Shown: positions 869 to 58,677 of the stretch, piece by piece | Position numbering within the stretch: position 1 is the first letter of the stretch | How the letters are laid out: every line of letters begins with the position of its first letter | Made by a program: the position numbers and the translations under genes | Virus record (IMG/VR): IMGVR_UViG_3300029305_005387 | From: a virus | Lineage: Duplodnaviria > Caudoviricetes | DNA length: 64,000 nucleotides | Reading direction: 5' to 3' (one strand) | Notes under the pieces: generated by a model | What the model was told of the DNA's origin: nothing | Databases searched by the model: none | The model's input: only the letters and a program-made list of their open reading frames with translations

Positions 869-1558
869 ATGAAACAGATTGTGAGATATAGATTCATGAC
901 TATTCCTAGTAAGCTAACAGGAGAGTTAAGAATTACAATAGATGAAAGATCTGCTGAGTATAATTCTCAGTTTGATGGAGGTCGTTCAACTAATATTGCG
1001 TTGTTTCCTATCATAGCAGTTGCAATAACACGACCTAACGAAATAGATGAGAAAGGAAATAAAATCAGAGCACCTTGGAATCCGAATGATTCAATTGGTA
1101 TGACTAAGTTTACATTTCCTATTTTCATCAACGAATTAAAAGCAATGATGAGAGATATGAAGATTCCTGAACTGTATACATATCAAGGGAATCGTTTAGA
1201 ACTAAATACAAAGATTAGTGAAAAATATCGTCATGTATTTATGCTCGGTAATACAGCGATTGAATTTAGTCCGGTAGTAATCACTCAACCTGATGAAACA
1301 AAAGTAGAAGGTGTTAAACTGAAATTCAATAGAGAAGAATCTTCAGTTTTATTAACATTAAATGAATTGGAAGCTTTGTTATATAATCTCAATTCATTGA
1401 ATGTTGATTTACTATCTCTTCAATTGTATAAGACTTACATTACAAAAGTTTCTTACAGTGAAGGACGAGCTTATAGAAATCCTAATCCAGATAAATTGGT
1501 AGATGTTCCAAATAACAATCATCCTAAAGAAATGGATTTTCAAGAATTTGTAGATTAA
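869..1558 (+). CDS. Hypothetical protein (229 aa)
   Basis: ORF with GGAGG RBS, followed by palindrome/terminator. Confidence 0.8.
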   Translation: MKQIVRYRFMTIPSKLTGELRITIDERSAEYNSQFDGGRSTNIALFPIIAVAITRPNEIDEKGNKIRAPWNPNDSIGMTKFTFPIFINELKAMMRDMKIPELYTYQGNRLELNTKISEKYRHVFMLGNTAIEFSPVVITQPDETKVEGVKLKFNREESSVLLTLNELEALLYNLNSLNVDLLSLQLYKTYITKVSYSEGRAYRNPNPDKLVDVPNNNHPKEMDFQEFVD

Positions 1559-1569
1559 TAAAGATATAA

Positions 1570-1601
1570 GATTTAGGAGGATCAATTGATCCTCCTAAAT
1601 C
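1570..1601. terminator. Perfect 32-bp palindrome, probable intrinsic terminator
   Basis: GATTTAGGAGGATCAA|TTGATCCTCCTAAATC. Confidence 0.7.
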
Positions 1602-4379: not shown

Positions 4380-5921
4380 TTATCGTTCTGTAAACCCATA
4401 ATCTGTAGCAACAAATTCACCATTTTTTCTGATACCAATATTACCCCAATGGATATCAGTTAGTGATATCTTTAATCCTGCGTTAATTCTTGCATCATGA
4501 ATATCATCTAATAATTTATCATATTTCTTTTGGTGGCTAGAATCATGGCGATCTACAGTATCAGTATCTACCAATTCCATAGATATAACGCATTTATTTT
4601 TAGAAATGTTTTCAACTCTTGTCAACAAATGATCAGAATTATTCTTTTTGAATGCGTCAAATACCATTGCTTCAGCATTATTAGATCTAACACCATATTG
4701 AGATAATGCAACTTTAATAGCTACTGGTTCATTTAATGGGAATAACGCTAATCTTGTTTGACCCATTTTAGGTCTTCGTTGATCTGCATTTCCTCTCATA
4801 CGTTTACTACAAATTGCAAATGTATTCCAAGCAATATATTTTGGAGGAACATTTCCAGTTATACAACCTTCGACGAATTTAGATAAATCTTCATTATTGT
4901 CAATCATCTCTGCATACTTAGCATCTATCTCATAAATATGATTCATACATGTGGTGATAGCGTTAATACCGAATTGAAATCTCCAAGATACATCAGCAAT
5001 GAAATTTAGAGCTTCACGAACAATAACACTGTTTTCACCAGGAATGATACTAGGATCATCATAGAAAGATAATGCCTTATGAATATCTTGAATAACTTTA
5101 TTTACTTCTTCAATATTCTTTATATCTGCAACGAATTTGTTAGGTACAGAAGCACCAGTATTCCAATATTGTTTAAATTTATTCACTTTATTGACAAATT
5201 GAGTTTCATTAAAAATACCACCTTCATATTCTTTAGCATTTAATGAAGAGATAATATCTTTAAGTAGATTTAGTTTATCAGGATTGATAATCATATCAAA
5301 AGTGAATACAATAGCATTCCAAGAATTATTTAACGGAGCATGTCCAGGTACAGCATTTCTACCTCGGTTAACCATATTGGAATCTTGAACATAATTTACT
5401 CGAAATAAAAAAGAACTTCCATCTATTTTACATTGTAAATCTTTATATGCTAATGTGATATTTTCTGTATGATCCGTTTTATCATCACCAACAATTGGAT
5501 TGAATGGAATACTGATAGATTTTTGTTCACTTACACTTTTATTAGATTCCAAAGATTTATCATTTGCTGATATTAATGTCTTTTGTGATTTTATACTTTG
5601 ATTATTAGATGGAGATTTAAATACTTCATCAACAATTGCATCTACACTTTGAGTTTTTCGTTTAAATAAATTTTTAACCCAATTAGTGAAACGATTCCAC
5701 TGTTTTGCAATCCAAGTAAATATCTTTTTAATTGTCTCCATAATACGAGTTATAAGATTTTTCTTTGTAACTGGTTTGGAAGTAGCCTCTGATAAAACTT
5801 CTTCCATATATGATGTTCCATCTTCAAAATAATTAATGAAAACATCTTCCTTTAAAATGTTTTAACATTTTAAAGGATTAAAATCAAATTTTTCATTGAT
5901 TACTAAGTCAATATTATTCAT
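4380..5921 (-). CDS. Head-protein leader fused to C-terminal protein-kinase-like domain; in-frame TAA at 5862-5864 (open frame 4380-5807)
   Basis: GQTR loop, VAIKVA, alphaC Glu (NNAE), DIHWGN, DYG; AAGGAGG RBS and ATG at 5921 in frame; leader homologous to paralog 6771-8246. Confidence 0.75.
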
Positions 5922-55286: not shown

Positions 55287-56291
55287 ATGGCTAAGAAGGA
55301 TAAGATTAAAATTCCAAAATCAGTCCTTGATCTACGTCACAGTCCTAAGAAGTTTGCTAAGAAGCATAATATTAGGATTAACGGGAAAGGATTAAGCAAA
55401 GGCGAAAAGAAGAGAAATAAGAAAAGACTTAAGGAAGAATATTCCGAACATGCAATTGAGGGTCTAAATAAGGCAGTTAAGATTCTCGCTGAACATCCTG
55501 ATCACAAGAAGACTGAAAAGGTCAAAGCAGGTGTTGATAATATCATCAATAACGATGTTGTTATGAAACGTATTGTGAAGTTGTATAAGAAGGATCCATC
55601 TAGTTATCCTAACATGATCTATCTTCCTAACATGATCATGAATACGTTAGCATATTACAATTCTGATACTATTACAGATGAAGAGAAAGCGATCGGAGCA
55701 GAGCTCGATACAGAAGGACTTATCAAATTCTGCGAAAAGATTCTTAAAAAGGAAATTAAGCGTTATGAAAATGCTGGTATCGCACCTGAAGTTAGTTTCC
55801 AGCTTGCCGTGACGATTCCTACCACAAAGTTATTCAAGAATCGTAAATGGTACAAGCATCTGATCTCAACTCTTTATGATATTGCTGAAAAGAGTGATGT
55901 TGATGTAGATGCAGTTCTGCGTGCAGTTACTAAGGTTGATAAGAAGAAAGGTATTAAGAAACAGGAATTCCTTGAAGGATTCTTCTCTGAATTCATTCTT
56001 CAGAAGAATACCAACAGAATCGCTAAGTTTAATGATTCTCAGAAGCAGTTACATGAAGATCTTATCGAAAGATCTCTTGTATATCTTGATAATCTGAAGA
56101 AATCTAAACTTCGTGATGTACTTAAGCAGTATATTAAGAGAAGAAAGAACGCAGAAGAATACAAGAATGATTCTAAACGTGTAATCAAGTTTACAGAGCA
56201 TGCTAATAGCAATTCTCCTTACGCAAATATCAAAACAGTTGTACAGGATTTGATTGCTGATAATGCATCAAATGAGCTCTACCTTTCTTAA
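55287..56291 (+). CDS. Basic hypothetical protein (334 aa)
   Basis: Lys-rich N-terminus; AGGAGG RBS. Confidence 0.8.
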   Translation: MAKKDKIKIPKSVLDLRHSPKKFAKKHNIRINGKGLSKGEKKRNKKRLKEEYSEHAIEGLNKAVKILAEHPDHKKTEKVKAGVDNIINNDVVMKRIVKLYKKDPSSYPNMIYLPNMIMNTLAYYNSDTITDEEKAIGAELDTEGLIKFCEKILKKEIKRYENAGIAPEVSFQLAVTIPTTKLFKNRKWYKHLISTLYDIAEKSDVDVDAVLRAVTKVDKKKGIKKQEFLEGFFSEFILQKNTNRIAKFNDSQKQLHEDLIERSLVYLDNLKKSKLRDVLKQYIKRRKNAEEYKNDSKRVIKFTEHANSNSPYANIKTVVQDLIADNASNELYLS

Positions 56292-56315
56292 ATTATGAAA
56301 TAGGAGGATTTTATC

Positions 56316-56849
56316 ATGGCTAAGAAGTCTAAGAAAGTTGAAAAAGAGACTAGACGTCTCATGGAAAGTATTGCCGATCTTGTAAAGAAGAAAGGTGACA
56401 AATATAAGTTTAAATCTAAGAATAAGAAAGTGATCAAGAAAGTTAAGAAGACTTGTGTTCACTGGATTTATCGCAAAGGTAAGGAAGTACCTACAGTTAT
56501 TCAGGATCCTAATCGTTCCGGATATTGGAAATGTAAGATCTGCGGTGCATCTTTCCCTATTAAGCCTCTTCCAACAGAAAAAGATTCCAAACGTAATGGT
56601 TATGAAATCGCTGCAGATGATATGCTTGGTTTAGTTAATCAGATGCAGTTCTGGTCTGTAGAACTTGGTGGCGACGCAGATGACACTAAGATGTTCATCC
56701 GTTTAAAGGAAGACCTTCCTAGATTCGCAAAGGTTTCTAAGCAGATTCTGAAGAATGTTAACAAGCGTGATGAAATGGAAAATAACAGAGCTAGAACAGA
56801 TGCAATGAGCCAGTTCGATGCATACTCTGGTTTCGGTTATAGAAATTAA
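56316..56849 (+). CDS. Basic Zn-binding hypothetical protein
   Basis: CVH...CKIC; AGGAGG RBS. Confidence 0.8.
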   Translation: MAKKSKKVEKETRRLMESIADLVKKKGDKYKFKSKNKKVIKKVKKTCVHWIYRKGKEVPTVIQDPNRSGYWKCKICGASFPIKPLPTEKDSKRNGYEIAADDMLGLVNQMQFWSVELGGDADDTKMFIRLKEDLPRFAKVSKQILKNVNKRDEMENNRARTDAMSQFDAYSGFGYRN

Positions 56850-56860
56850 TCAGTGTTAAA

Positions 56861-56898
56861 AATTATGGAAGGTGATATTATCATCACCTTCCATAATT
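56861..56898 (+). terminator. Terminator hairpin
   Basis: 16-bp stem, 6-nt loop. Confidence 0.65.
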
Positions 56899-57004
56899 AA
56901 AATAAAAACTTATAACGTCATATACATTTAATAGTAATAGGGTGAAATAATAAAAGATGAGAGAACATCAATTAAAATTTCATTGAATTAATCTATCTGA
57001 TTCA

Positions 57005-57097
57005 AATTCTCAACTTAGTTGGTTATTCAAGATATCTAACAGCAGTCTGATAAACTGTGAATATAAATTGATAGATAATTTATATTGGTTGAGAATT
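57005..57097 (+). ncRNA. Oversized tRNA-like cloverleaf with Ile-GAT anticodon loop; no TTCG T-loop, no CCA
   Basis: 10-11-bp closing stem, GTTGG/CTAAC arm, GCAGT-CTGATAA-ACTGT arm, 10-bp arm with 7-nt loop. Confidence 0.55.
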
Positions 57098-57107
57098 CCT
57101 ATATTAT

Positions 57108-57184
57108 GGGCCTTTAGCTCAGTTGGTTAGAGCATCCGGCTCATAACCGGACGGTCCCGGGTTCGAATCCCCGAAGGCCCACCA
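57108..57184 (+). tRNA. tRNA-Ile2 (CAT)
   Basis: Canonical cloverleaf GGGCCTT...AAGGCCCACCA, loop CTCATAA; acceptor resembles Firmicute Ile2 rather than Met. Confidence 0.9.
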
Positions 57185-57193
57185 TTAATATCA

Positions 57194-57303
57194 AAGTCAC
57201 ATACAGCAACTAATAAAACAAAATTGCTTATAGCTTCATGAGTTCGAATCTCATACTATTAAACTTTAATAGTTATCCAAGTGGCCAAAGGAACAAGTGA
57301 CTT
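57194..57303 (+). ncRNA. Circularly permuted, anticodon-less tRNA mimic (YrlA Y-RNA-like topology)
   Basis: Order T arm, loop-closed acceptor stem, D arm, all enclosed by AAGTCAC/GTGACTT. Confidence 0.75.
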
Positions 57304-57321
57304 ATGGATATATTAAAATAT

Positions 57322-57406
57322 GCCGGTATGATGGAATTGGCAGACATGACTGACTCAAAATCAGTTTCCATTAGGAGTAGCGGTTCGAGTCCGCTTACCG
57401 GCACCA
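57322..57406 (+). tRNA. tRNA-Leu (CAA)
   Basis: GCCGGTA...TACCGGCACCA, loop CTCAAAA, long variable arm. Confidence 0.93.
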
Positions 57407-57409
57407 TAT

Positions 57410-57485
57410 GCGTCTTTAGCTCAGTAGGAAGAGCAATGCACTTTTAATGCATGGGTCTGGAGTTCGAGCCTCCAAAGACGCACCA
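57410..57485 (+). tRNA. tRNA-Lys (TTT)
   Basis: GCGTCTT...AAGACGCACCA, loop CTTTTAA. Confidence 0.93.
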
Positions 57486-57745
57486 CTTCTCCGTATCGTG
57501 GGAGATTAATAAAATACACGAGCATCTTATATCAGTGAATAAGATGAGCCCAGTAAAATCTGACGTAATACCAAGCGGTATGAATGTAGTAAATAATCGG
57601 GGCTAATCTCTATAGTGATATAGAGCAGTTCATAAGAGAACGGGCTAAGATTAGCGACCTTAGTCGAATATTATTAAACCTTAGCACTCCTCGTGCGAGA
57701 GGCATCCTAGCCACAGGGAGTTGGAAGGATGAAAAAAAAGAGGGC
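57486..57745 (+). ncRNA. Unassigned multi-hairpin structured RNA
   Basis: GC-enriched non-coding stretch with about nine stems, between tRNA-Lys and a terminator. Confidence 0.5.
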
Positions 57746-57749
57746 AATT

Positions 57750-57795
57750 AATAAATTACCCAGAGGAGCTATGATGCTCCTCTGGGTAATTTATT
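57750..57795 (+). terminator. Terminator of the tRNA/ncRNA cluster
   Basis: 20-bp stem, 6-nt loop, T tail. Confidence 0.75.
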
Positions 57796-57819
57796 TTTAC
57801 TAAAAGGAGGGATTAATTT

Positions 57820-58677
57820 ATGTTTGAAGGATTCAATAATCATGAAAAGAAAACAATCGCAGATGTTATTATGTGGACAATTCATCACGATGTAATTTCA
57901 TCCTCATTAATGATGAAAACTTTTCAAATTGAAAAATTCGTAGCACAAAGCACATTGGAGATGTTGTCTAAGATTGAAGTAATTGAAGAAAATGATCAAC
58001 AACCGGAACTGTATTATGTATTAATTAATGAGGTAGAAAACTTACTTCCAGAAGTTTTAGATCTTCTCATTAATTGTGATTATAGTTTATCTGATATTAA
58101 GAAAGCCGTACAAGGTGTACCTAAAGAAGAAAAATATGTTTCATCAAATATCTTATCTGATAAGAGTAGAGATTGGATACCATTCAATGAAACTAAACCA
58201 AAACTAAATACACCTATACTGATTCGTTTTACGGATGAATCTACCGTATTAATGGAATCCAAAACAGAAATCGTTTATTCTGAGGATTTAAAAATTGCTA
58301 TGTGGGATGGTATAGAATTCCATATTATGGCCCCATATCCTAAGTATGATTTTAGTCCATTATCAAATAAAGAATATTTAAATGATGGAGTATTTGTAAC
58401 ACACTGGTCCAATATTAATAGGAAAGATTTGGAAGGATGGCAGACTCGTTTCAATCCTATCAATAAATATAAACATTTGGAATTATCTGTTTCTAGAGAA
58501 CAAGAGGAGGAGGTTTATAAGGCATTAATTCTTGCAGCCGCCTGCATCATGCGAACTGTGAATGATTGTGCTGCTAATGATCCTACTAGAGATAAACTAG
58601 TAAAGGCTCATTCAGTTATGTGTGATCTTCAAAGTGCAATTGACTATGGTATAATTCAAAATTCGGAAGGAGAATAA
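57820..58677 (+). CDS. FtsK-gamma-like winged helix plus DUF551-like domain
   Basis: ISSSLMMKTFQIEKFVAQSTLEMLSKIEVI...VLI; WIPFNETKP...VTHW. Confidence 0.55.
   Translation: MFEGFNNHEKKTIADVIMWTIHHDVISSSLMMKTFQIEKFVAQSTLEMLSKIEVIEENDQQPELYYVLINEVENLLPEVLDLLINCDYSLSDIKKAVQGVPKEEKYVSSNILSDKSRDWIPFNETKPKLNTPILIRFTDESTVLMESKTEIVYSEDLKIAMWDGIEFHIMAPYPKYDFSPLSNKEYLNDGVFVTHWSNINRKDLEGWQTRFNPINKYKHLELSVSREQEEEVYKALILAAACIMRTVNDCAANDPTRDKLVKAHSVMCDLQSAIDYGIIQNSEGE

What the first reader, a model, noticed from the sequence alone, without database searches (positions are those of the whole stretch)
57005..57097. Oversized cloverleaf displaying a canonical Ile-GAU anticodon loop but lacking the tRNA elbow and CCA
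Seen: closing stem AATTCTCAAC/GTTGAGAATT, a TA linker like U8-A9, arm GTTGG/CTAAC, one A, the 5-bp stem GCAGT/ACTGT with 7-nt loop CTGATAA, and a 10-bp arm with 7-nt loop stacked on the closing stem. The connectivity is that of tRNA, but the arms are elongated and the GG/TTCG elbow motifs are gone. It is the complement of the 57194-57303 element, which keeps the elbow and lacks the anticodon. Inference: a decoy for anticodon nucleases or modification enzymes, or a T-box ligand.
Basis: partly seen in the sequence, partly recalled or inferred. Interest (0 to 1): 0.75.

Follow-up and report, generated by a model that had tools for sequence, protein, structure and literature searches.

The report
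Handle-less tRNA-Ile anticodon-arm mimic RNA
At the head of a gut jumbo phage's tRNA operon sits a folded, tRNA-derived RNA that keeps only a perfect isoleucine-tRNA anticodon hairpin; the same hairpin is carried by Ro60-partner "Y-like" RNAs in other phages, so it is probably a bait for proteins that read or cut tRNA anticodons, though a decayed gene relic is not excluded.

Summary
The described cloverleaf is really there (57005-57097, + strand), and it folds much better than shuffles (z -4.2). Cloverleaf-shaped folds are not rare in this AT-rich DNA, so the shape alone proves little.

- **Origin:** it derives from a tRNA. It keeps a D-loop relic (AGTTGGTTA) and a canonical Ile-GAU anticodon stem-loop (ASL). 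It has no T arm, no CCA and no 7-bp acceptor stem. ARAGORN and Rfam do not see it.
- **Key result:** 24 nt of the ASL recur unchanged in permuted tRNA-like RNAs of other phages. Twenty of these nt recur in a small RNA next to a bacterial DUF2828 (Ro60-like)-RtcB operon. The loop is kept on two other stems.
- **Those relatives** belong to a large "clamp helix + CAGCAA" Y-like RNA family that is not in Rfam. This scan has already found it in at least 17 genomes. Neighbour 57194-57304 is a member.
- **Membership:** the element lacks that handle, and a covariance model matches only its ASL. No full-length homologue was found.

Best reading (about 0.4): a free-standing anticodon-arm mimic, acting as bait or decoy. 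Main rival (about 0.3): a rearranged relic. The T-box-ligand idea is rejected. I rate it a new variant of a known kind, of moderate interest.

The parts
56984..57004 (+). 5' hairpin directly abutting the closing stem: 7 bp, with 7-nt loop AUCUAUC (56991-56997).
   Evidence: Fold of 56960-57107. The loop is 7/7 complementary to the AT-hairpin loop (pair I3). Shuffles of the 105 nt upstream contain that 7-mer in 2.3% of cases.
57005..57014 (+). 5' strand of the closing ('acceptor-like') stem.
   Evidence: 10/10 complementary to 57088-57097 (pair I4). Pair probabilities 0.9-1.0.
57014..57040 (+). TA linker and D-like arm. It contains a relic of a canonical D loop (AGTTGGTTA, with the GG), now predicted to pair as GTTGG/CTAAC around a small inner hairpin.
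   Evidence: 11 of 12 positions match the D arm of tRNA-Met at 57118-57129 (repeat D1).
57041..57059 (+). A26-like base, anticodon stem-loop GCAGU-CUGAUAA-ACUGU (anticodon GAU, Ile), and G44-like base.
   Evidence: -.
- The 24 nt at 57040-57063 are identical in L007, L008 and L125. Twenty of them are identical in L123.
- The only CTGATAA hairpin in the 64 kb window.
57060..57086 (+). 10-bp all-A/U hairpin with loop GAUAGAU. It sits in the place of the variable and T arms.
   Evidence: pair I5 (100% complementary). Analogous AAUAAA-type hairpins follow the same anticodon arm in L007, L008, L125 and L031.
57087..57097 (+). 3' strand of the closing stem. It is followed by CCUAUAUUAU and then tRNA-Met. 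No CCA is present.
57108..57184 (+). Context: tRNA (CAU anticodon) 10 nt downstream. It would be co-transcribed, and RNase P cleavage at its 5' end would release the element.
   Evidence: ARAGORN and Rfam. The processing step is inferred.
57194..57304 (+). Context: canonical member of the handle+CAGCAA Y-like family. It is a permuted tRNA body with T arm, sealed acceptor and D arm, but no anticodon arm.
   Evidence: Model R1 gives 22.7 bits, E 0.003.

Best explanation
The element is a small non-decoding RNA of about 93-114 nt, derived from a tRNA-Ile(GAU)-type gene. It is made from the + strand as the first unit of the phage's inserted tRNA operon. It keeps one tRNA part intact, the anticodon stem-loop, and mounts it on long A/U helices. 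It has lost the T arm, the elbow and the CCA end, so it cannot be charged or decode.

It most likely works as an anticodon-arm mimic. It would offer a protein that reads or cuts the anticodon loop of tRNA-Ile (a host anticodon nuclease, or an anticodon-loop modifying or repair factor) a look-alike substrate that competes with the real tRNA.

Its relatives carry the same hairpin on a 'clamp helix + CAGCAA' handle, which is thought to dock on a Ro60-like protein. This copy has no such handle and would act free-standing.

**Shown:** the fold, its strand specificity, the tRNA ancestry, conservation of the hairpin, and the absence of tRNA and handle features.

**Inferred:** transcription, processing, any binding partner, and the decoy function.
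For: **Structure**
- Strong strand-specific four-helix fold: -24.0 kcal/mol, z -4.2, against -17.2 on the other strand. Pair probabilities are at least 0.9.
- Two perfect 10-bp helices are not expected in a decaying pseudogene.

**tRNA ancestry**
- D-loop relic (repeat D1).
- tRNA-like spacing: 2-nt linker, single A26, 5-bp stem with 7-nt loop C-U-GAU-A-A.

**Conservation of the anticodon arm only**
- 24/24 nt identical in L007, L008 and L125, although the flanking arms are unrelated and the tRNA genes of these phages are only about 74% identical.
- 20/20 nt identical in L123, inside a handle+CAGCAA RNA that lies just upstream of DUF2828/DUF7788 and RtcB genes.
- The loop is kept on stems ACTGT/ACAGT (L020) and AATGA/TCATT (L031). 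In L031 an A/U hairpin follows it in the same four-way topology.

**Family context**
- Model R1 finds 175 handle units in 832 kb of phage tRNA-cluster DNA.
- 48 of 135 distinct units carry anticodon-form loops: Lys UUU 17, then Arg, Asn, Tyr, Phe and Ser.
- A DUF2828-type gene lies within the few kb held for about 38 loci.

**Position:** no ORF overlaps the element. It lies after a hairpin that closes the upstream gene and 10 nt before a tRNA.
Against: - No full-length homologue exists in any collection searched. The scaffold therefore has no covariation support.
- Relatives of this phage lack the whole tRNA cluster at this site.
- Cloverleaf-shaped folds arise in 0.4% of background windows.
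- G+C is only 27%, close to intergenic DNA and below the neighbouring RNAs.
- The handle that defines its functional relatives is absent.
- The hairpin matches no phage tRNA-Ile(GAU) in 120 loci. It also matches no tRNA in one genome per species of 185,579 species. So no specific tRNA is shown to be mimicked.
- There are no expression data, and no anticodon nuclease for tRNA-Ile is identified in this system.
Confidence: 0.4

Rival explanations
1. Evolutionary relic. The element would be the leftover 5' half (acceptor strand, D arm, anticodon arm, variable hairpin) of a composite permuted tRNA-like gene of the L008 type, or of a tRNA-Ile gene. Rearrangement within the mobile tRNA cluster left it behind, and it has no function of its own.
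For: - Its order of parts equals the 3' portion of the L008-type unit, with everything from the handle to the T arm missing.
- The D arm is visibly degraded (repeat D1).
- Low G+C of 27%.
- No homologue of the whole element.
- The cluster is a lineage-specific insertion.
Against: - A relic should not hold two perfect 10-bp helices plus an intact 5-bp/7-nt anticodon arm.
- The identity with L008 is confined to the anticodon arm while both flanks differ. This looks like selection on that arm, not recent copying of a block.
- The G-U pairs are strand-specific.
Confidence: 0.3
2. A divergent partner RNA of the phage's Ro60-like (DUF2828) protein. A cryptic, shortened handle would be formed by the mini-hairpin UAUU-CAA-GAUA followed by UCUAA-CAGCAG (57024-57044), as in the non-permuted family members where a hairpin handle sits inside a tRNA body.
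For: - AAGAUAU...CAGCAG resembles the handle 5' strand plus motif. L086 has a unit with exactly AAGATAT-gta-CAGCAA.
- Non-permuted members with hairpin handles exist.
- Earlier notes say this genome has a Ro60-like gene with a five-unit array about 32-34 kb beyond the window (not checkable here).
Against: - Model R1 aligns only the anticodon arm: 11.2 bits, E 2.7, no handle. That is no better than the anticodon arm of the real tRNA-Lys.
- A 4-bp hairpin followed by CAGCA(A/G) occurs 16 more times in this window by the same scan.
- CAGCAG is simply part of this anticodon stem, and L123 has it in addition to a proper CAGCAA motif.
- Real hairpin handles have 5-7 bp.
Confidence: 0.1
3. A cis-acting leader of the tRNA operon. 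It would be a 5' structure that protects the polycistronic precursor, guides its processing, or holds protein-binding inverted repeats at the DNA level.
For: - It is the first structured unit after the upstream gene's closing hairpin, 10 nt before the first tRNA.
- Weak promoter-like matches overlap its 3' part.
- An 11-12-nt imperfect inverted repeat spans it: 56986-56997 with 57070-57081 (pair I3).
Against: - Promoter-like matches are no more frequent than in shuffles.
- A leader role does not explain why exactly this anticodon hairpin recurs in unrelated RNAs elsewhere.
Confidence: 0.1
4. A working but bizarre tRNA-Ile, or a T-box ligand.
For: Canonical anticodon loop and cloverleaf connectivity.
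Against: - No T loop, no NCCA, and an 11-bp closing stem.
- No score with ARAGORN or the Rfam tRNA model.
- No T-box found.
- RNase P, the CCA-adding enzyme, EF-Tu and T-box stem I all need the acceptor/T-arm stack or the elbow (established knowledge).
Confidence: 0.02

Closest known systems
Handle+CAGCAA phage Y-like RNAs (unnamed; absent from Rfam; noted repeatedly in this scan), especially units whose cargo is an isolated anticodon stem-loop
   Same: - Carries the very same Ile anticodon hairpin as family members L123 RNA B, L007/L008/L125, and (loop only) L020 and L031 unit 1.
- Lies in a phage tRNA cluster beside a canonical member.
- Has the same four-way topology as L031 unit 1: closing helix, D-like hairpin, anticodon arm, A/U hairpin.
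   Different: It lacks the defining 7-bp clamp helix, the CAGCAA motif and the 3' G. A 10-11-bp unrelated stem closes it instead, and the family model does not recognise it.
YrlA, the tRNA-like Y RNA bound by bacterial and phage Ro60/Rsr (Rfam RF02553; Chen et al. 2014, PMC4201824)
   Same: It is a tRNA-derived, non-decoding RNA that presents tRNA parts. The neighbouring family has YrlA's stem-V-T-acceptor-D-stem layout, and RF02553 hits it below threshold at 31-39 bits against a gathering score of 69.
   Different: YrlA mimics the D arm, T arm and acceptor stem and has no anticodon arm. This element is the inverse: anticodon arm kept, T arm lost. No RF02553 hit here, and no GNCGAAN0-1G motif.
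Ordinary tRNA-Ile(GAU) and tRNA pseudogenes in phage tRNA clusters
   Same: Anticodon arm of canonical form, a D-loop relic, U8-A9-like linker and a single A26.
   Different: No T arm or T loop, no NCCA, an 11-bp 'acceptor' and only a 1-nt variable region before a 10-bp A/U hairpin. The anticodon stem is unlike any of 40+ phage tRNA-Ile(GAU) genes examined.
Phage RNA decoys such as RNA anti-CRISPRs (solitary repeat units that mimic crRNA; from my own knowledge, not checked here)
   Same: The proposed logic is the same: a phage-encoded RNA copy of a host-enzyme substrate that titrates a defence protein.
   Different: A different target system. For this element the decoy activity is only inferred.

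Membership tests
tRNA (Rfam RF00005; ARAGORN) | Detected by tRNA covariance and heuristic models | tested here: not met
   ARAGORN finds only Met, Leu and Lys in the window. cmscan at E up to 10 gives no tRNA hit over 57005-57097.
tRNA (Rfam RF00005; ARAGORN) | T arm with GTTCRA-type loop, and D-loop GG free to form the elbow | tested here: not met
   No T-loop motif is present. The arm in that place is a 10-bp A/U hairpin with loop GAUAGAU. The GG is present as a relic but paired in the predicted fold.
tRNA (Rfam RF00005; ARAGORN) | 7-bp acceptor stem with discriminator and (addable) CCA end | tested here: not met
   The closing stem has 10-11 bp and is followed by CCUAUAUUAU.
tRNA (Rfam RF00005; ARAGORN) | 5-bp anticodon stem with 7-nt loop, pyrimidine-U-NNN-purine-N | tested here: met
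   GCAGU-CUGAUAA-ACUGU at 57042-57058.
Handle+CAGCAA Y-like RNAs (model R1, built here from alignment A2) | 7-bp clamp helix formed by the RNA ends, then 2-4 nt and CAGCAA on the 5' side, with an unpaired G at the 3' end | tested here: not met
   With filters off, R1 gives 57194-57304 22.7 bits (E 0.003). This element gets only a local match of model positions 14-57 at 57028-57069: 11.2 bits, E 2.7.
Handle+CAGCAA Y-like RNAs (model R1, built here from alignment A2) | Cargo made of tRNA parts, such as an anticodon-form hairpin | tested here: met
   The hairpin is identical to that of L123 RNA B and of the L007/L008/L125 units.
Handle+CAGCAA Y-like RNAs (model R1, built here from alignment A2) | A Ro60-like (DUF2828/DUF7788) gene in the same genome | not testable with these tools
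   There is no tblastn hit in the 64 kb window and no whole genome is held. Earlier notes place such a gene about 32-34 kb beyond the window.
YrlA (Rfam RF02553) | Score with the family covariance model; T, acceptor and D modules on a Ro-binding stem | tested here: not met
   No RF02553 match in 56000-58500 at E up to 10. The T and acceptor modules are absent.
T-box ligand (uncharged tRNA) | Elbow for the stem I platform, and a free NCCA end for the antiterminator | tested here: not met
   Neither feature is present, and no T-box leader is found in the region. The requirement itself is from established knowledge.

The most novel reading that the evidence does not exclude
The phage splits tRNA mimicry between two RNAs that flank one tRNA gene. 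One is a Ro60-docked tRNA body without an anticodon (57194-57304). The other is a free-standing anticodon arm of tRNA-Ile (56984-57097), a dedicated RNA decoy that neutralises a host anticodon nuclease or another anticodon-loop enzyme specific for tRNA-Ile. Its loop-loop contact (AUCUAUC with GAUAGAU) would replace the lost D/T elbow.
Probability: 0.15. Interest if true: 0.8.

Novelty: new variant of a known kind. Interest (0 to 1): 0.45.

Why it matters
Bacteria often stop phages by cutting tRNA anticodon loops. The known phage answers are replacement tRNAs and RNA repair enzymes.

RNA copies of anticodon arms, either docked on a Ro60-like protein or free-standing as here, would be a third answer: substrate mimicry by RNA. 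This element shows that the same Ile anticodon hairpin is kept unchanged across two phage lineages and a bacterial DUF2828-RtcB locus while its scaffold is freely exchanged. That points to the hairpin itself as the functional unit.

It also gives a natural handle-less control for testing what the handle does. The larger family has already been seen many times in this scan, so the added value here is the variant, not the family.

Tried and rejected
1. **Known RNA families.** Rfam at E up to 10 gave nothing over the element or over the L123 RNAs.
2. **Known phages.** Only the tRNA-Met matches. MT835495, which has the closest tRNA-Met, has no such element upstream.
3. **Full-length homologues.**
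   - The exact 20-mer gave only L007/L008 in viral contigs, and L123/L125 plus duplicates in metagenome contigs.
   - A 19-mer search of 185,579 species genomes gave one chance hit inside a coding region.
   - A degenerate pattern (CA-N5-CTGATAA-N5-GAATAWA) gave 73 loci. Apart from L007/L008, only two had a stem at all, both in A/T-rich non-RNA context.
   - A tRNA-Leu 22-mer, used to fish close relatives of this phage, gave nothing.
   - The scan's own index holds no look-alike.
4. **Syntenic relatives.** L001-L005 lack the whole tRNA cluster.
5. **Cryptic handle.** Rejected as within noise.
6. **Exact mimicry of a phage tRNA-Ile anticodon stem.** Not found.
7. **T4 stable RNAs C and D.** Read as possible relatives, but no shared motif was seen.
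8. **Generic scan for closed stems around anticodon-like hairpins.** Too noisy in A/T-rich DNA to be useful.
9. **Caveat on selection.** The units in alignment A2 were chosen for perfect pairing, so its 100% paired cells are partly circular. The independent support is the 175 R1 hits, the roughly two-fold excess over decoy motifs, and the RNAalifold covariation on alignment A1.

Full report
**1. What is there**

The window is A/T-rich phage DNA. It holds an NAD-dependent DNA ligase, and its relatives are IMG/VR contigs of up to 292 kb.

- Gene 56316-56849 ends with a closing hairpin. Between it and the next gene at 57820 lies a 970-bp non-coding block.
- ARAGORN and Rfam find three tRNAs in that block: CAU at 57108-57184, Leu-CAA at 57322-57406 and Lys-UUU at 57410-57485.
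- Relatives that share the flanking genes have only a terminator, or a small ORF, at this place. The whole RNA cluster is therefore a lineage-specific insertion.

**2. The observation**

- The minimum-free-energy fold of 57005-57097 is the described four-way cloverleaf: -24.0 kcal/mol, z -4.23, and none of 200 shuffles is as stable.
- All helices have high pair probabilities.
- The complementary strand folds worse, at -17.2 kcal/mol. Four or five pairs are G-U only on the + strand, so an RNA read in the direction of the tRNAs is the sensible reading.

There are two corrections.

- First, 57014-57025 is a relic of a canonical D loop with its GG. It matches the D arm of the next tRNA at 11 of 12 positions. 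The element is therefore visibly tRNA-derived, and only the T-loop motif is missing.
- Second, cloverleaf shape alone is weak evidence. 85 of 21,304 background windows of the same length (0.4%) give a three-branch cloverleaf with a closing stem of at least 6 bp, and two of them are more stable.

The unusual features are the tRNA-exact spacing, the canonical CUGAUAA arm (the only such hairpin in 64 kb), the position, and the comparative result in section 3.

A further 7-bp hairpin (56984-57004) abuts the closing stem. Its loop AUCUAUC is a perfect complement of the A/U-hairpin loop GAUAGAU. Shuffles of the upstream 105 nt contain that 7-mer in 2.3% of cases, so this is suggestive only.

**3. 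Relatives of the anticodon arm**

A 20-mer spanning the arm occurs in the following places:

- two IMG/VR contigs, L007 and L008;
- their metagenome duplicates;
- L125;
- L123.

With L007, L008 and L125 the identity runs 24 nt and stops there. The flanks are unrelated, and the tRNA genes of those phages are only about 74% identical to the window's.

In those phages the arm is part of a circularly permuted tRNA-like unit. Its order is: clamp-helix strand, AUACAGCAA, variable hairpin, T arm, acceptor stem sealed by a loop, U8-A9, D arm, A, the Ile anticodon arm, G, a short A/U hairpin, and the other clamp strand.

The window splits this between two RNAs.

- 57194-57304 has the clamp, motif, T arm, sealed acceptor and D arm, but no anticodon arm.
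- 57005-57097 has the acceptor-like strand, D relic, anticodon arm and A/U hairpin, but no T arm and no clamp.

In L123, a bacterial-looking contig, the arm sits in a short RNA: clamp AAGGCAC, AACAGCAA, arm, clamp. That RNA lies directly upstream of genes with DUF2828/DUF7788 and RtcB domains and downstream of WYL regulators.

The loop CUGAUAA is also kept on other stems.

- In L020 the stem is ACTGT/ACAGT.
- In L031 unit 1 the stem is AATGA/TCATT. There an A/U hairpin again follows, and the topology is the same four-way junction, but closed by a clamp with UACAGCAA.

**4. The family behind these relatives**

- The pattern AUACAGCAA...GTTCGAWTC hit more than 113 viral contigs. Most are units of the permuted layout.
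- In alignment A1, 18 of 19 predicted pairs have compensatory changes.
- Rfam's YrlA model reaches them only below threshold, at 31-39 bits against a gathering score of 69. Their order of modules is that described for YrlA: stem, V, T, acceptor stem-loop, D, stem (Chen et al. 2014, PMC4201824).
- Many shorter units carry only a hairpin as cargo.
- A model of these, R1, finds 175 hits at E of 0.01 or less in 832 kb.
- 48 of 135 distinct hits carry a 5-bp stem with an anticodon-form loop. Lys UUU leads with 17; Arg UCU, Asn GUU and Tyr GUA have 4 each; Phe GAA and Ser GCU have 3 each.
- DUF2828-type genes lie within the few kb held for about 38 loci.
- Non-permuted forms also exist, in which a hairpin clamp sits where the anticodon arm would be.

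Earlier notes of this scan describe the same family in at least 17 genomes. They also place a five-unit array with a Ro60-like gene about 32-34 kb beyond this window in the same genome. I could not check that gene, because no genome is held.

**5. Is the element a member?**

No, on the defining feature.

- With filters off, R1 scores 57194-57304 at 22.7 bits (E 0.003). It aligns only the anticodon arm of this element, at 11.2 bits and E 2.7. That is no better than the arm of the real tRNA-Lys.
- A possible cryptic handle exists: a 4-bp hairpin followed by CAGCAG. But 16 more such combinations occur in the window, and CAGCAG is simply part of this particular stem.
- It is not a tRNA either: no T loop, no CCA, an 11-bp closing stem, and no model hit.
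- Its stem matches none of the phage tRNA-Ile(GAU) genes in the loci.
- It matches no tRNA in 185,579 species genomes; the single hit there is a chance match in a coding region.

**6. How it most likely works**

The only part under evident constraint is the anticodon arm. It is unchanged in two phage lineages and a bacterial DUF2828-RtcB locus, while the scaffolds differ.

I therefore read the element as an anticodon-arm mimic of tRNA-Ile(GAU). It would be co-transcribed with the tRNAs and released by RNase P cleavage 10 nt downstream; both steps are inferred. It would then present the arm to a protein that recognises or cuts that loop.

The context supports this reading. Its relatives are tied to a Ro60-like protein and RtcB, which are known components of RNA repair in biological conflicts (PMC7824862). 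Because it lacks the handle, it would act free-standing.

I give this 0.4.

- The main rival is a rearranged relic of a composite unit, at 0.3. Low G+C (27%), the decayed D arm and the absence of any orthologue favour it. The two perfect 10-bp helices and the sharply bounded identity speak against it.
- A divergent Ro60 partner and a cis-acting operon leader get about 0.1 each.
- A working tRNA or a T-box ligand is excluded for practical purposes.

**7. Novelty**

The handle+CAGCAA family and its anticodon-arm cargo are already on record in this scan, though I found them in neither Rfam nor the papers searched. What is new here is a handle-less, cloverleaf-mounted copy of the same Ile arm beside a canonical member. 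That makes it a new variant of moderate interest, and a natural control for what the handle does.

Noticed in passing
L008:3960-4110 (+); L007 about 9270-8700 (-); L125 about 1510-1600 (+): The gene after the composite unit is a class II-looking tRNA with a good acceptor, D and T arm. It is interrupted by about 60 nt in L008 and by more than 450 nt with an ORF in L007, while L125 looks uninterrupted. It is a candidate tRNA intron with and without a homing-type ORF.
   Followed up: no
L123:1-4700 (-): A bacterial-looking contig carries, in order, two WYL-domain regulators, two handle+CAGCAA RNAs, a DUF2828/DUF7788 (Ro60-like plus vWA-like) gene, and RtcB. It looks like a cellular version of the phage RNA-protein pairing. 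Rfam recognises neither RNA.
   Followed up: partly
L031:3750-4280 (-): Four tandem handle units follow a DUF2828-like gene directly, in a contig where ARAGORN finds no tRNA. The first carries the CUGAUAA hairpin. The fourth has a motif variant, UUCUGCAA.
   Followed up: partly
L011:499-569; L046 near 9880; L065:2773-2846: tRNA-Ile(GAU)-like genes have an unusual T loop, GCGUUAC. ARAGORN misses the L011 copy, but the Rfam tRNA model scores it at 56 bits.
   Followed up: no
window 56991-56997, 57049-57052 and 57070-57076: The 5' hairpin loop AUCUAUC reads as two Ile codons (AUC). It is complementary to the GAUAGAU loop over 7 bp, and also to GAUA of the anticodon loop over 4 bp. The two could therefore be alternative partners.
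   Followed up: partly
window 57486-57800: A non-coding stretch of about 260 nt with raised G+C follows tRNA-Lys. It ends in a strong hairpin at 57747-57795, which is probably the operon terminator. It has no Rfam family and no handle motif.
   Followed up: no
L029:1908-1994 (-): This is the minimal non-permuted family member. It has a tRNA body in which a 7-bp hairpin with a 4-nt loop replaces the anticodon arm, and AUACAGCAA fills the variable region. It shows plainly where the handle sits in tRNA terms.
   Followed up: partly
window 4985-5090 (+): A weak full-length R1 match (13.2 bits, E 0.78; AAGAUA...CAGCAA...UAUCUUG) lies inside a region that is coding on the opposite strand. It is probably chance.
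   Followed up: no
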